From the NCBI RefSeq assembly GCF_963506605.1, contig NC_083279.1, positions 69,564,001 to 69,628,000 of the forward strand: DNA of 64,000 nt, written 5' to 3'. The position numbers are program-made. Every line of letters starts with the position of its first letter. The first letter of the stretch is position 1. Source of the stretch: Zootoca vivipara. Its lineage: Eukaryota. Below are positions 30,001-36,000 of this stretch, in pieces.

Positions 30001-33000
30001 TGGGATTTGACTTACAATTTTTTCTACTTACAAATGTGTGTTTGGAACGCATTAAATTTGTAAGTAGAGGTACCACTGTATTTAACACTAAGGAGAGTGG
30101 CTGCTTAATTGCAACATAGATTTTTAAATGCATGTATCAGATGTACTACGGTACAGAAATTCCCATTGTTAATATTGGAGGCAACAAGACATTATTGAGA
30201 GGTGTCTACTGTATTCTGAGAGGTAAAACCATTTCTAATGTGCACAGAAGTCATATCACATCTAGAGTTGCAAAGGATTTACTCCTTAATTCCAAATGTA
30301 TCCAACTATATTTTACTCAGAGTAGACTCATTGAAATCAATAGACCTAAATTATTCATGTCCATTAATGGGTTTGGTGTGAATATTGTTTTAACATTGGA
30401 TACAACCCTCGAGCCACAGTGAACACAACAGCCACAGGCTCAGGTTGCTTTAAAGGGGGATGAGACAAAGTTCAAGGAGAAAACAATTATAGCTGAATAA
30501 AACATCCATGCTCAGAGGAAGCCTGCCCTTGAAGCTGCTGCCTTGAATGCCTTGTGGGCTCCCTGAACCATCTGTCTGGAAAACAGAATGCTGGACTACG
30601 TTGATCTTTGATCTGATCCAGCAAGGTTCATATATGCATTCTGTCACTTTAAAGCAGGGGCTGGGAATTTCGTTTAGCCGGAAGGCTGCAGTTTGTCATG
30701 GACAACCTTGTGGGCAGGGACAAGCAAAAGTGGAAGTGAAGGATGCAGCCCTTATGTTTGTGCAATAAACTACATTTCAACCACACAAAAACCAAAGGTT
30801 TCTATACCACATTTAACAGGATATATATACCTCTTAATCATCAAAGCCTCTAAGCCCACCAGGCCTCCTTATTTGGCCAGCCAGGCTGTTTCATGCAAAA
30901 CTATCCTGCCCACCTGTCAAAATTGGCCCATGGGAGTGGGCCCATAGGATTCCCCAGCCTGCTGTTAAGTGGTTTGCATCTTTCCATCCAGATAAGCAAA
31001 ATGCAACATCACAGTTAAGAACATGTTCCAGCCTGGCCAAAGTACTTGAGGAAGAGTCTCAAAGCCTGAGGTAGTCTCTCAAAAAGCTACATTTGGCCCC
31101 TAAGCTGGAAGTTTCCCATCCCTGCTTTAAAGACTAGCAGATTTGTGGCATGAGTTTTTTGTGTTCAGGCTTGGAACTAGTAACTATTTCAGAATTTAAG
31201 CTTGTATGTTGTTCCAGCTTTCATTTACTTTGTTCCCTTTTGCTTTCCTACTTAGATCTCCAGATCACACTAAATTTGTCGGAAGTTTCAAAACAAAACA
31301 AGACTTCATAGATTTGATTGAGGTGATTTACCGTGGAGCAATGCGTGGAAAACTAATCGTACGAAGCCCAATTGATCCAAAGAATATTCCCAAGTATGAC
31401 CTTCTGTATCAAGGCATTTAATGCCCCACAGGGAGAGGAGTGACAGGTGGAATATGAACTGCTTAAAGCTGATGATTCCACGTCTTCTCCAAACGTATGC
31501 CAATTGCATCTTGAAAGCAAAAGGAAGAAAGGAGCTGAGACTGGTCTTTTGTACTCAGGATCATATTGGTCAGCCTCAGAGACAGACTTTCATTAATTCA
31601 TTTTTCAATGGAATTGACCGGAATTGCTTAGGCTGAAACTTATTTAATTCTAATATGTCAAAGAAGCTGCAGTAGAGTAATATGTTCTTGCTCTAAATAA
31701 ATGCTTTCGGGCTATATAAGGATATAATTAACAAGAATAATTCTAGAGCTGCCATGCCCTGTAGAAGTATCCTGAAGAAAAGATAAAAGTAATGACTGGG
31801 TTTTTATTCTGAAATGTTATAACTGCTCCCACTATCTGTCCTAACTTCCCAGCCATCAACTGAACACTACATCTTCAGAAATATAAGGTATTTCTGGTTT
31901 CACAACACAAAATGGGAAATTCTTTTTTGGAAAAGGATGGTGGGTGGGAACTTAAATGTTAAAATTGGTTTATTAAAAAAATAAATATTTTAAGATATTA
32001 AGAATTAAACTCAACTGTATTGTGTCAAAGTATGATGGTGCAATAGGAAGGATGAATGAGTAAACCCATCTTTCAAGCAAAGTTTTCTAATTCTTTTTGC
32101 TATGCACTGAACTTTCCACTCACAATTGCAATGCATATATTCAGTGATTTATTCATTTTTTACTGCTGGTTCAGATTAAACACCAGACTTTTCAAAGGAA
32201 GGAAGGAAGGAAGTTTTGCCAGAAACAAGGAACAGTTGTTACATTAACATTCACATAAAGTTTCAGAAATGGAAATGGGACAACAAATATTAGACTGGTA
32301 ATGGTATGCTCCATATCTAGATAAAGTACTTTTACCTCAACGATAAGCTTAAGCATCAAAACTAGTACAAAACTTCTATTAGAAGAAAAAATGGGTATGA
32401 ATAACAGATGCTTAACTTGTTTTCATTGACTTGCTCCTTGTTAGAATAGGTGAACGATTGATCGGTTGTTTAGTGAAGACTTTCAGTGCACTCTTAAGAT
32501 ATTTGAAAATGGACTGTAGACTAGAGGAAGGAGCCAGGCTATAATTTTCAGTTCCTGTGGAGACTGTAGGGCAATCAACTTTCACCCTAAAGCCTACTGA
32601 CTTATCTAAAGGTTCACTGTGGGATACCCACTCTCGGCAATGTTTCCATATCCAGGCCTGCACCTGGGAAATGCCTTGTGTCTGGTGCGGTGTGTGGTGT
32701 GTGGAGTCAATAAGCGCAACAGCACCTACTTTGTTCATTACCTCCGAAGTTCTCTGCATGAGGAGGTCGATGAAAACCAAACCTCCATAACCATGGGCAA
32801 TGAAAGCCACCTTTTCTGCTGTGCTCTTTGAAATGAAATGGTCCCAAACGTAACTTGTATGCTCTTCAGGACTACTGCTCTCTCTCTTTGGGACTGCCGA
32901 GGGTGATTGTAGTGGACATGTGGAGTCTTTTTTCTCAGAGAGGCTGAAGCATTCTTGTTCTGTCTTCAGTTCAATGAAGTTGTCATTGGGATTTAAAACA

Positions 33001-36000
33001 ATCACTCCCCAAGAGCACTGCAGAGCCTTTATGATGAATGGTATTTGAGATCCGTGTTGGAGGCCTTCACGAACTATGACTTTTCGTCCCCACTGACCTG
33101 CACGAAAAGATCCCTTGTCTTGAAGGAGGATGACTAGAGTTGAGCAATTAGTTAATGCATTCTCACTCATGAAAAAAAAACTGCGAAGTTCATTGTCTGG
33201 AGCATCTGTTGGGATGTAAATCTTTTGCAGTTTGCATGTCTTTTCCAGGAGCTCGAAAACATACTGAGTAATTAAGCATCCAAGATATTGAAAATGTTGG
33301 TGATTAGCATTATGTGAATTTTGATAATCATAAACAAAAGGTTCATTGGTATCCATATGCCTAAGGTCCCCATTTTTATTAAAGTCATATTTGAGAGTTT
33401 CTGGACATTCTGAACCATTTATTAGTTTTCTGAAGCTCAAATCTTCATTCATCTGTGTCCACTACAAATAAAACAGACGGATCATGACATAAACAAAAAA
33501 TCATACATTTCTTGTAAAAATATTGTAGAAAATTTCAAAATATCACTGTTCAGGTGGGGACAGCAGTAAAAATAACTTTAACTTAAATCAATGCAACTTA
33601 AAAAGTGACAAATATTTTGTTTGTTGCATTTGTATCCTGTTCCATTTTTAAAGTAGCACAGAATGATGAGGGGTTTATTAGATGTTTTAAAGTGCTGGTG
33701 AGGCCCAAACCCACTAAACTTCAGTGTAAAACTTTAGTAGATACCTTCTGAGCATTCTTTGAACTGTGTAATTTTAGCCACCACTGTAGTAACAGATAAA
33801 AAATAGATCAGTTTAAACCCAGGGTATATTTCTAGTGTAGTTCTACTTGACTTTTGCCAGTATCCAGTGAAGTAGTTCTATTGGTGCCAAGACTTTTCCG
33901 TCCATCTCCTCTCCCCTAATGCCCCCTGCACAGACACCCCTAAATACAGAACATACTTACATTCATGTTGCTTGAGAATAACAGCAAAGGCTTCTAGATA
34001 CTTCTGGATATTTTGCTTCAGAGATCTGCCTGAACAGAGTCAACTATTAATATGTTGTAGTTCAGGGCTTATTGTTTCCTAATCAAGTATAGCTATGGTG
34101 CCAAATTTAAGGGCAAACAATTTACAAACTCAGTTGTGCACCACATGATAAAGATAGGCATGAAAACTGATAATGTGGGAAAGTGCTTCCTAATCTTTGT
34201 TGTATTGAGGCTTCCTTGTTCTTTGCATTTCACCGAATTCTGTAAACACCATATTGAATTCTTAAATTGCTCCCAAGTTAAAACTGCCATATGTGCCCTA
34301 TATGGCCAAAACCCAAAACACATACAACATTACACCTATGCAATCCACACAACTTGAAATGTGCACTATGAAGAATATTGTATGCCTACACCTTATGAAT
34401 GTGATGCATGAAACTAACCTTGATACCTAGGGGGTTGTAAACCTGCATATGCTCACAATACACATCTAAACATCTACTTGTGCTTTGCAATTTCTGCTAT
34501 TCAACAGAAGTTATTTTCAAAAAAGCATTATAGGACTGCACCCTTATTTATTTATATTAAGAAAATTACATGCAGAAAGGTATAACCAAAATCATATACT
34601 GTACACACACACAGAAGAGGAAGCAGCAAACTCAGGTTTCCAATTTTATGGAACTCCCAGATAAGCCTTTCCTCCTCCTCCTCCTCTCTCCTCCCTCTCA
34701 GGAGCCTCCTGGCTATTAGGCAGGTCCTGACTTATCAAGACCTTGAGAAAACCAGACATAGGGGAACTCCTTCACACCTCCTTATAATTCAGGCCCCTTA
34801 TCTGTTACATTCCTTTGGTGAGCACAGAAAGAAAAGGCCATTAGGTGGCTATACATCACTTTAGAAGCGTTAATTAAGAAACAAAGCAGGAACTGAATTA
34901 GTTCAAACACTTGATGGATTGCAGGATACAAAAACAGGGAAGAGCTTCGAAGGGTATCTGAAAACTTTCCACTAACTTCCTTTGACACATATCAAAAAGC
35001 AGGCAATATCTTTCAGCAAGCATTTCTGGTTACAGAAGCAAATGGCATTACAGTAGTTATGTTACATACAAACAGACTAGAAATACATTTCTAAGATTCT
35101 ACACCCTCTCTGTTGAATTTCTAGTGAATACTTAAAGACATTTTTTTATCCCAGCAGACAGTTTAACTGTATTCTAATTTTATAGTTTTAACTGATTTTT
35201 ATCTCTCTTGTATTCAGTTACTTTTACACCCTTTAGAGATTATTGTAATTAAGTAGTATATAAATTGTTGTTGTTGTTTAGTCGTTTAGTCGTGTCCGAC
35301 TCTTCGTGACCCCATGGACCATAGCACGCCAGGCACTCCTGTCTTTCACTGCCTCCCGCAGTTTGGTCAAACTCATGTTCGTAGCTTCGAGAACACTGTC
35401 CAACCATCTCGTCCTCTGTCGTCCCCTTCTCCTAGTGCCCTCCATCTTTCCCAACATCAGGGTCTTTTCCAAGGATTCTTCTCTTCTCATGAGGTGGCCA
35501 AAGTATTGGAGCCTCAGCTTCACGATCTGTCCTTCCAGGGAGCACTCAGGGCTGATTTCCTTAAGAATGGATAGGTTTGATCTTCTAGCAGTCCATGGGA
35601 CTCTCAAGAGTCTCCTCCAGCACCATAATTCAAAAGCATCAATTCTTCGACGATCAGCCTTCTTTATGGTCCAGCTCTCACTTCCATACATCACTACTGG
35701 GAAAACCATAGCTTTAACTATACGGACCTTTGTCGGCAAAGTGATGTCTCTGCTTTTTAAGATGCTGTCTAGGTTTGTCATTGCTTTTCTCCCAAGAAGC
35801 AGGCGTCTTTTAATTTCGTGACTGCTGTCACCATCTGCAGTGATCAAGGAGCCCAAGAAAGTAAAATCTCTCACTGCCTCCATTTCTTCCCCTTCTATTT
35901 GCCAGGAGGTGATGGGACCAGTGGCCATGATCTTGGTTTTTTTGATGTTGAGCTTCAGACCATATTTTGCGCTCTCCTCTTTCACCCTCATTAAAAGGTT

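What the first reader, a model, noticed from the sequence alone, without database searches (positions are those of the whole stretch)
32412..33966. Intact FAM172B looks like a catalytically dead ARB2-family pseudo-hydrolase, although the human locus is a pseudogene
Seen: an uninterrupted 346-351 aa ORF. Three motifs differ from FAM172A/ARB2A as I recall it. The nucleophile elbow AHSYGG is AHGYGG (Gly codon 32790-32792). The oxyanion-loop HGSG is QDKG (33111-33122). The C-terminal GTDRH is GTENY (Tyr 32541-32543). The fold motifs (RAGQW, IVLNPN, SPEEH, YVWDHF) are kept, while the basic internal insert and the C-terminal HEEL tail are absent. Known: FAM172A is an Argonaute-2/CHD7-linked co-transcriptional splicing regulator, and the syntenic human FAM172BP is annotated as a pseudogene. 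Inference: a retained, essentially uncharacterised non-catalytic paralogue that could act as scaffold, decoy or antagonist of FAM172A in sauropsids.
Basis: partly seen in the sequence, partly recalled or inferred. Interest (0 to 1): 0.78.

Follow-up and report, generated by a model that had tools for sequence, protein, structure and literature searches.

The report
Intact, non-catalytic FAM172B (Arb2-domain) gene
This is an intact copy of FAM172B, a little-studied gene that is a pseudogene in humans; its protein lacks the residue a hydrolase enzyme would need, so it probably works by binding other proteins, which is plausible but fairly ordinary.

Summary
The ORF is real. It lies at 32412-33452 on the minus strand and encodes 346 aa (349 stop to stop; 351 with a possible two-codon upstream exon). 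It matches Pfam Arb2 over the whole profile (E 1.6e-59).

The gene sits 6.8 kb from a TRMT10C-like gene, with PCNP-like and zinc-finger exons beyond. Papers place human FAM172BP beside TRMT10C, so FAM172B orthology is well supported.

The nucleophile-elbow position carries Gly (AHGYGG). There is no classical NLS and no HEEL tail. Canonical serine-hydrolase chemistry is therefore excluded by sequence. A weak PDB alignment puts Gly221 on the Ser of a GHSFGG elbow.

Several things could not be checked here:
- 3D mapping of the triad, because two single-sequence AF2 models failed (pLDDT 31-34);
- dN/dS;
- expression in this species.

The coding region is a single exon, which suggests a retrogene origin. 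Non-catalytic Arb2 domains are already the rule in Hda1 and Clr3. A dead paralogue is therefore plausible but unsurprising, and the decoy or antagonist roles are untested. Verdict: new member of a known kind, modest interest.

The parts
32412..33452 (-). Main (probably only) coding exon of the FAM172B-like gene: 346 codons plus a TAA stop. It holds the whole Arb2 domain without interruption.
33961..33966 (-). Possible upstream mini-exon end: ATGAAT followed by the donor GTAAGT. It would add 5 residues in frame, giving 351 aa. Its 5' extent is unknown and its use is not shown.
   Evidence: read; contexts (A at -3 here, C at -3 for the ATG at 33452)
33462..33960 (-). Putative 499-nt intron, running from GTAAGT through a pyrimidine-rich tract to TAG. 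The acceptor's TAG is also the in-frame stop that bounds the long frame.
33111..33122 (-). QDKG (residues 111-114), just after the hydrophobic run LVILL and before RAGQW.
   Evidence: correspondence to FAM172A is recalled only
32781..32798 (-). AHGYGG (residues 219-224): a nucleophile-elbow pattern with Gly221 where a Ser, Cys or Asp nucleophile would sit.
   Evidence: weak PDB alignment to the GHSFGG elbow of 9dk4_A (E 0.88, not significant)
32703..32714 (-). LIDS (residues 247-250): a candidate retained acid (Asp249) after a hydrophobic strand-like run.
   Evidence: its role is inferred from alpha/beta-hydrolase topology and was not tested
32541..32555 (-).
   Evidence: correspondence is recalled only
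32874..32975 (-). Internal loop, residues 160-193 (IELKTEQECFSLSEKKDSTCPLQSPSAVPKRESS). It is Ser/Pro-rich, residues 160-200 are net acidic, it holds CK2-type S/T-x-x-D/E sites, and it has no bipartite NLS.
   Evidence: NLS pattern taken from the passage
32148..32153 (-). First AATAAA downstream of the stop (258 nt after it). A second lies at 31969-31974. Both are candidate poly(A) signals.

Best explanation
The locus is the intact orthologue of FAM172B (ARB2B), a vertebrate paralogue of FAM172A/ARB2A. It encodes a 346-351 aa protein that is essentially one Arb2 domain, which has an alpha/beta-hydrolase-like fold. The whole coding sequence lies in one exon whereas Fam172a has introns, so the gene most likely began as a retrocopy of FAM172A. 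That retrocopy would have landed between TRMT10C and the next gene before mammals and sauropsids split; this step is inferred.

The protein cannot run the canonical serine-hydrolase mechanism, because the elbow position holds Gly. This is shown by the sequence. It also has no classical NLS, no signal peptide or membrane segment, and no HEEL tail; these too are shown by the sequence.

The most likely mode of action is inferred by analogy with Hda1, Clr3 and FAM172A. The protein would act as a non-enzymatic protein-binding module. Because it has no import signal of its own, it would act in the cytoplasm or enter the nucleus only when bound to a partner.
For: - Family: Pfam Arb2 at E 1.6e-59 over profile positions 3-260 of 260, and Arb2-like at 1.3e-06. 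The nearest ESM Atlas clusters are 'ARB2 cotranscriptional regulator A' (0.98) and 'FAM172A isoform X7' (0.97), both mainly Chordata. All ten of the best hits that carry a family share a family or clan.
- Orthology by position: the TRMT10C-like ORF at 24286-25647 (-) matches tRNA_m1G_MT at 1.1e-34. A PCNP-like exon matches at 2.6e-08. C2H2 zinc-finger exons lie at 2.9-6.8 kb. Human tables list 'FAM172BP-TRMT10C' at chr3:101,258,778 and FAM172BP with ZBTB11-AS1 and NXPE3.
- Intactness: an open frame of 349 codons, chance about 6e-11, reached by 0 of 300 shuffles.
- Single coding exon: the Arb2 match is continuous. Mouse Fam172a has introns ('last intron of Fam172a', passage).
- Non-catalytic: AHGYGG with Gly221. 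A weak alignment puts EKVAFIAHGYGGL on EKVILVGHSFGGL of an alpha/beta hydrolase.
- Family precedent: Arb2 of the histone deacetylases is alpha/beta-hydrolase-like, inactive and lacks a triad (passages). The Hda1 ARB2 domain dimerises and binds histones (abstract and passages). FAM172A homodimerises, binds AGO2 and needs its bipartite NLS (passages).
- No NLS, no basic cluster, and a maximum hydropathy too low for a signal peptide or TM segment.
- Transcription of a namesake in a bird: LOC100545050 'putative protein FAM172B', log2FC -4.09 in turkey muscle.
Against: - No orthologue could be fetched, so there is no dN/dS and no check that Gly221, Tyr304 or QDKG are fixed in the FAM172B lineage rather than peculiar to this genome.
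- The 3D positions of the three residues are unconfirmed. 0 of 346 and 0 of 298 residues reached pLDDT 50.
- The PDB elbow alignment is not significant (E 0.88).
- No poly(A) remnant supports retroposition, although none is expected after so long.
- Expression and splicing in this species are unknown, and no CpG-island promoter lies upstream (CpG o/e 0-0.13 across 33453-35252).
- Binding partners are entirely inferred.
- Orthology rests on position and on gene names in papers. It does not rest on a sequence comparison with annotated FAM172B proteins or with the human locus, which was deliberately not compared.
Confidence: 0.6

Rival explanations
1. One reading: FAM172B is a decoy or antagonist of FAM172A. 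It would heterodimerise with FAM172A through the conserved Arb2 surface, or bind AGO2. Lacking an NLS, it would hold the partner in the cytoplasm and so damp AGO2 nuclear import and co-transcriptional splicing.
For: FAM172A homodimerises and needs its bipartite NLS to carry AGO2 into the nucleus (passages). This protein keeps the Arb2 core but has no NLS pattern.
Against: Nothing here tests binding. The AGO2-relevant E229 of FAM172A lies in the NLS loop, which this protein replaces with a different, acidic Ser/Pro-rich loop. AGO2 binding may therefore be lost rather than kept. Co-expression with FAM172A is unknown.
Confidence: 0.12
2. Nothing 'died'. The Ser/Asp/His-like residues of FAM172A are not used for catalysis either, as in other Arb2 domains. 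The substitutions in FAM172B would then be ordinary drift at unconstrained sites in a tissue-specific duplicate with the same kind of scaffold function.
For: The Arb2 domains of the histone deacetylases are described as inactive and lacking a triad. The Hda1 ARB2 insertion disrupts the substrate pocket. 0 held papers contain both FAM172A and 'serine hydrolase'. Of the 11 listed papers holding FAM172A and 'hydrolase', none has both words in its title or abstract.
Against: By recall only: FAM172A keeps a textbook elbow, an HG loop and a His, and I recall the 2018 PNAS paper (not held) discussing a serine-hydrolase-like motif. Loss of three of four such elements together in the paralogue looks like relaxed constraint on a once-used site.
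Confidence: 0.2
3. The gene is unconstrained or decaying in this lineage, a young unitary pseudogene whose frame happens still to be open.
For: The human orthologue carries a pseudogene symbol (FAM172BP/ARB2BP). There is no CpG-island promoter. An intact LINE sits about 1.3 kb upstream of the putative first exon.
Against: The frame is open for 349 codons (chance about 6e-11; 0 of 300 shuffles reach it). The Arb2 match is full length at 201.8 bits with no frameshift. Splice and poly(A) signals are intact.
Confidence: 0.07
4. It is still an enzyme, using a non-canonical nucleophile or a different chemistry in the same pocket.
For: His220 and Asp249 are kept, and a His-rich run (THHTPH, residues 251-256) follows the LIDS motif.
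Against: There is no Ser, Cys or Asp at the elbow. The HG-type loop position reads QD. No Pfam hydrolase family matches at E <= 1; only Arb2 and Arb2-like do.
Confidence: 0.04

Closest known systems
FAM172A / ARB2A (vertebrate cotranscriptional regulator linked to CHARGE syndrome)
   Same: Same Pfam Arb2 domain. The nearest Atlas clusters carry its name.
   Different: No bipartite NLS splits the domain here (against the description). The elbow has Gly instead of the recalled Ser, QDKG instead of the recalled HGSG, and Tyr instead of the recalled His. There is no HEEL tail (recalled). The coding region is a single exon, while Fam172a has introns. No tool-supplied FAM172A sequence was available, so these differences are not tool-verified.
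Human FAM172BP / ARB2BP (pseudogene)
   Same: Same neighbourhood. It is listed beside TRMT10C and with ZBTB11-AS1 and NXPE3 on chr3. The window has the Arb2 ORF 6.8 kb from a TRMT10C-like ORF, with PCNP-like and zinc-finger exons beyond.
   Different: The frame here is intact.
Arb2 domains of the fungal class II histone deacetylases Hda1 and Clr3, and S. pombe Arb2
   Same: Alpha/beta-hydrolase-like, non-catalytic, protein-binding and dimerising domains. The related Pfam family Arb2-like (PF09757) also matches, at 28.2 bits.
   Different: [quoted passage not shown] Similarity is too low for phmmer to find 5ikk-type chains. Here the domain is a stand-alone protein.
Pseudoenzymes of the alpha/beta-hydrolase superfamily in general (for example NDRG proteins and neuroligins; recalled)
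   Same: The fold is kept, the nucleophile is lost, and the function shifts to binding.
   Different: These are unrelated families. They are named only as a functional analogy from general knowledge.

Membership tests
Pfam Arb2 (PF22749) | Sequence match above the curated cut-off across the domain | tested here: met
   201.8 bits against a cut-off of 26.8, E 1.6e-59, profile positions 3-260 of 260
Pfam Arb2 (PF22749) | Alpha/beta-hydrolase-like three-dimensional fold | tested here: inconclusive
   Two single-sequence AF2 runs gave mean pLDDT 31.2 and 33.8, with no residue at 50 or above.
Pfam Arb2 (PF22749) | Homodimerisation through the protruding arm, as in Hda1, Clr3 and FAM172A | not testable with these tools
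   No usable computational result; see Tried and rejected.
FAM172B / ARB2B orthology group | Conserved position next to TRMT10C in the ZBTB11-PCNP-TRMT10C neighbourhood | tested here: met
   Window gene order. Human FAM172BP-TRMT10C label, and FAM172BP listed with ZBTB11-AS1 and NXPE3.
FAM172B / ARB2B orthology group | Closer in sequence to annotated FAM172B proteins than to FAM172A (tree or reciprocal best hit) | not testable with these tools
The genome-contig scan found no relative. The Atlas gives cluster names only.
Active alpha/beta serine hydrolase | Nucleophile (Ser, Cys or Asp) in the elbow small-x-Nu-x-small-small after a beta-strand | tested here: not met
   VAFIAHGYGG has Gly221 at the Nu position. 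A weak alignment places it on the Ser of GHSFGG in 9dk4_A (E 0.88).
Active alpha/beta serine hydrolase | Catalytic His after the last core strand and an acid after the preceding strand | tested here: inconclusive
The alignment to FAM172A is recalled, and no reliable model exists.
Active alpha/beta serine hydrolase | HG-type oxyanion loop after strand beta-3 | tested here: inconclusive
   LVILLQDKG has Gln-Asp where an HG dipeptide would be expected. The position is assigned by motif order only. The fragment search in PDB gave only a chance hit.
FAM172A-type AGO2 import adaptor | Classical bipartite NLS (K/R-K/R-X10-12-K/R 3 of 5) splitting the ARB2 domain | tested here: not met
   The regex found no bipartite NLS, no K[KR]x[KR] pattern and no cluster of 4 or more basic residues in 6. 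Residues 160-200 have 5 K+R against 8 D+E.
FAM172A-type AGO2 import adaptor | CK2 phospho-motif cluster next to the loop | tested here: inconclusive
   S/T-x-x-D/E sites at residues 164, 170, 193 and 194. Equivalence to the S215 cluster of FAM172A could not be aligned, and Fig S4A of that paper was not visible.
Processed retrogene | Intron-less coding region while the parent gene has introns | tested here: met
   Continuous Arb2 match within one ORF. 'Last intron of Fam172a'. The exon count of FAM172A is recalled.
Processed retrogene | Poly(A) remnant and target-site duplications | tested here: not met
   No run of 8 or more A and no A-rich 20-mer within 1.4 kb 3' of the stop. Target-site duplications were not searched. 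Neither is expected to survive in an insertion older than the amniote split.

The most novel reading that the evidence does not exclude
FAM172B is an ancient retrogene-derived pseudo-hydrolase with no NLS. Sauropsids keep it as a cytoplasmic partner or brake on the FAM172A-AGO2 nuclear-import and splicing axis. Its loss in the human lineage would then have removed one layer of control over nuclear Argonaute.
Probability: 0.1. Interest if true: 0.55.

Novelty: new member of a known kind. Interest (0 to 1): 0.3.

Why it matters
FAM172A is one of the few known routes by which AGO2 enters the nucleus, and it is a CHARGE-syndrome gene. A natural paralogue lacking both the NLS and the elbow nucleophile would be a ready-made separation-of-function variant. 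Comparing the two could show which FAM172A activities need the import loop and which, if any, need the hydrolase-like site.

The case also illustrates a gene that is dead in humans but apparently alive in reptiles and birds. Beyond that, it is an ordinary case of a pseudoenzyme paralogue in a family whose solved members are already non-catalytic.

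Tried and rejected
- **Structure.** AF2 without an alignment gave mean pLDDT 31.2 on the whole protein and 33.8 on residues 15-312. I ran no fold search on these models because a low-confidence model gives meaningless matches.
- **Homodimer.** Complex prediction with two copies returned 'no answer' (score 0.00 in both runs). 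This is neither for nor against binding.
- **Solved structures by sequence.**
  - Whole protein: 2 chains at E <= 1, both chance-level and neither an Arb2 protein.
  - Residues 90-165: 1 chance hit to a nitroreductase-type oxidoreductase.
  - Residues 200-310: 2 hits. One is a chance match to a small snake three-finger protein, which I ignored. The other is the weak hydrolase elbow alignment used above.
- **Relatives.** The genome-contig scan matched a pattern in 78 stretches, and 0 were confirmed as relatives. That collection holds bacteria and archaea, so this was expected.
  - The 2018 PNAS paper on Fam172a is not held.
  - 0 papers hold both FAM172A and 'serine hydrolase'.
  - A five-term search was too broad to be useful.
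  - 12 papers hold FAM172A and 'hydrolase'. None of the 11 listed has both words in its title or abstract. The one passage I read was unrelated.
  - A further passage look-up gave only the alias ARB2A, and another paper had no domain information.
- **Supplements.** Fig S4A of PMC10205598 (the CK2-NLS loop sequence) could bear on the loop comparison but was not visible.
- **Other scans.** The bacterial-type promoter and terminator scan upstream of the gene is irrelevant to a vertebrate gene and I disregarded it. Rfam found 0 families in the window.
- **Spliced model.** The upstream piece is only two codons, so the searches used the main exon alone.
- **Human locus.** It was not compared.

Full report
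**Observation.** The minus strand carries an ATG-to-stop frame at 32412-33452 encoding 346 aa. Stop to stop it is 349 codons, 32412-33461. It is the third-longest frame in the window, after a 1036-aa LINE ORF and a 453-aa TRMT10C-like ORF. None of 300 shuffles of window 29001-35000 gave a frame longer than 174 aa, and base composition gives about 6e-11 for 349 open codons.

The protein matches Pfam Arb2 (PF22749) at E 1.6e-59, with residues 15-282 on profile positions 3-260 of 260. It also matches Arb2-like (PF09757) at 1.3e-06. These were the only two families at E <= 1.

| Motif | Residues | Window coordinates |
|---|---|---|
| QDKG | 111-114 | 33111-33122 |
| RAGQW | 117-121 | 33090-33104 |
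| IVLNPN (VLNPN 152-156) | 151-156 | VLNPN 32985-32999 |
| SPEEH | 194-198 | 32859-32873 |
| YVWDHF | 201-206 | 32835-32852 |
| AHGYGG (Gly221) | 219-224 | Gly221 at 32790-32792 |
| GTENY (Tyr304) | 300-304 | Tyr304 at 32541-32543 |

The C-terminus is ...SMKTS.

The figure of 351 aa comes from ATGAAT|GTAAGT at 33966-33961, followed by a pyrimidine-rich tract and an acceptor AG at 33463-33462. These are in frame with the main exon. I read this from the sequence only.

**What could not be verified.** My recall agrees, but no tool gave me a FAM172A sequence. PDB holds no relative detectable by sequence. The Atlas returns cluster names without sequences. The bacterial and archaeal contig scan confirmed none of 78 pattern matches.

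**Identity and neighbourhood.** The window gene order is as follows:

| Feature | Position and strand | Evidence |
|---|---|---|
| C2H2 zinc-finger exons | 2.9-6.8 kb (+) | |
| PCNP-like exon, abutting the N run (left alone) | 18290-18454 (-) | Pfam PCNP 2.6e-08, |
| GC-rich block | 20-22 kb | |
| TRMT10C-like single-exon ORF | 24286-25647 (-) | tRNA_m1G_MT 1.1e-34, |
| Three-exon DIM1/TXNL4B-like gene | 28.4-31.4 kb (+) | |
| Arb2 ORF | 32412-33452 (-) | |
| Intact LINE ORF | 35278-38388 (-) | RVT_1 9.5e-41, Exo_endo_phos 2.3e-13, |

In human data, one GWAS table labels a SNP at chr3:101,258,778 as 'FAM172BP-TRMT10C' (passage). Another groups FAM172BP with ZBTB11-AS1 and NXPE3 (passage). Position therefore supports orthology with FAM172B. 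I did not compare the human sequence itself.

The Atlas holds this protein letter for letter, so it already exists as a predicted protein in public data. Its nearest clusters are named ARB2A/FAM172A and are mainly Chordata (0.98 and 0.97). By recall, the LINE looks like an RTE/BovB element, which would fit a squamate host. This was not tested.

**Is it catalytic?** In alpha/beta hydrolases the nucleophile sits in a tight elbow, small-x-Nu-x-small-small, after a beta-strand. This is established knowledge of the superfamily. Here the matching pattern, KVAFIAHGYGG, has Gly at the Nu position.

A fragment search of PDB gave a non-significant hit (E 0.88) to a hydroxynitrile-lyase-type alpha/beta hydrolase. 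It aligns EKVAFIAHGYGGL with EKVILVGHSFGGL, which puts Gly221 on that enzyme's elbow Ser. This is weak but consistent.

Without a nucleophile, the canonical acyl-enzyme mechanism is excluded. The assignments of QDKG to the oxyanion loop, Asp249 to the acid and Tyr304 to the base rest on motif order and on the recalled FAM172A alignment.

**Other features.**
- No bipartite NLS of the form described for FAM172A (K/R-K/R-X10-12-K/R 3 of 5), no monopartite pattern and no basic cluster were found.
- The internal loop, residues 160-193, is Ser/Pro-rich with CK2-type sites at 164, 170, 193 and 194. Residues 160-200 are net acidic.
- No stretch is hydrophobic enough for a signal peptide or a membrane segment.
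- Candidate poly(A) signals lie 258 and 437 nt after the stop.
- The upstream 1.8 kb is CpG-poor (o/e 0-0.13), so a CpG-island promoter is absent.

**Origin.** The whole Arb2 domain lies in one exon, whereas mouse Fam172a has introns (passage). The simplest inference is an old retrocopy of FAM172A that gained a small 5' exon. No poly(A) remnant survives, which is expected at this age. This is an inference, not a demonstration.

**Mechanism.** Solved Arb2 domains are alpha/beta-hydrolase-like but inactive (passages). The Hda1 ARB2 domain dimerises through a protruding arm that occludes the would-be pocket, and it binds histones (abstract and passages). FAM172A homodimerises, binds AGO2 and imports it through its own NLS (passages).

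My best explanation is therefore a non-enzymatic binding module that, lacking an NLS, acts in the cytoplasm or is carried in by a partner (confidence about 0.6 for the whole statement).

I rate the sub-claims differently:
- Arb2 family membership: near certain.
- FAM172B orthology: about 0.85.
- Non-catalytic: about 0.8.
- The binding mode: about 0.5.

However, the residue of FAM172A needed for AGO2 binding lies in the very loop that differs here.

The other rivals are:
- the triad never mattered in FAM172A either (0.2);
- relaxed constraint in this lineage (0.07);
- a non-canonical enzyme (0.04).

**Literature and novelty.** A search for FAM172B, FAM172BP, ARB2BP or ARB2B found 11 papers, none with a term in title or abstract. 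I read passages of three of them:
- a turkey muscle RNA-seq table listing 'putative protein FAM172B' as down-regulated;
- two human association tables.

No functional study of FAM172B turned up in these searches, and no held paper links FAM172A to 'serine hydrolase'. The 2018 PNAS paper that first described Fam172a is not held.

The gene is thus annotated but uncharacterised. The pseudo-hydrolase reading is new as a statement, yet it fits the norm of its family. I class it as a new member of a known kind, with interest 0.3.

**What stays open.** Still unresolved are selection (dN/dS), conservation of the three substitutions across FAM172B, the 3D mapping, expression and splicing in this species, and any binding partner.

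Noticed in passing
window 28397-31421 (+): A complete three-exon DIM1/TXNL4B-like gene, with exons at about 28397-28528, 29262-29414 and 31257-31421. The three exons match Pfam DIM1 profile positions 1-44, 35-92 and 93-132. It lies between the TRMT10C-like gene and the Arb2 gene and is convergent with the latter. The two stop codons are about 990 nt apart, so the 3' UTRs may overlap. By recall, human TXNL4B is on another chromosome. The exact exon 2/3 junction was not resolved.
   Followed up: partly
window 35278-38388 (-): An uninterrupted 1036-aa LINE ORF with endonuclease and reverse-transcriptase domains. It is on the same strand as the Arb2 gene and about 1.3 kb upstream of its putative first exon. 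It looks RTE/BovB-like by recall. It is probably a young, possibly active copy that could influence the gene's promoter.
   Followed up: partly
window 24286-25647 (-): A 453-codon single-exon frame matching tRNA (guanine-1)-methyltransferase (TRMT10C-like). The region at 27.9-28.4 kb between it and the divergent DIM1-like gene may be a shared bidirectional promoter.
   Followed up: partly
window 18290-18454 (-), N run 18455-18587: A PCNP-like exon (Pfam PCNP 2.6e-08) runs directly into the stretch of N. The N run was left as it is.
   Followed up: no
window 20001-22000 and 40001-42000: These are the two most GC-rich 2-kb blocks in the window (GC 0.52 and 0.49). Many overlapping long frames are typical of CpG-island promoters, perhaps for the PCNP-like gene and for a gene to the right. 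Exon-like frames at 58986-59669 (+) had no Pfam match.
   Followed up: no
window 32640-32831 (+): A 63-aa ATG frame lies antisense inside the Arb2 coding exon. It is within the length range of chance frames seen in shuffles, and I take it as noise.
   Followed up: no
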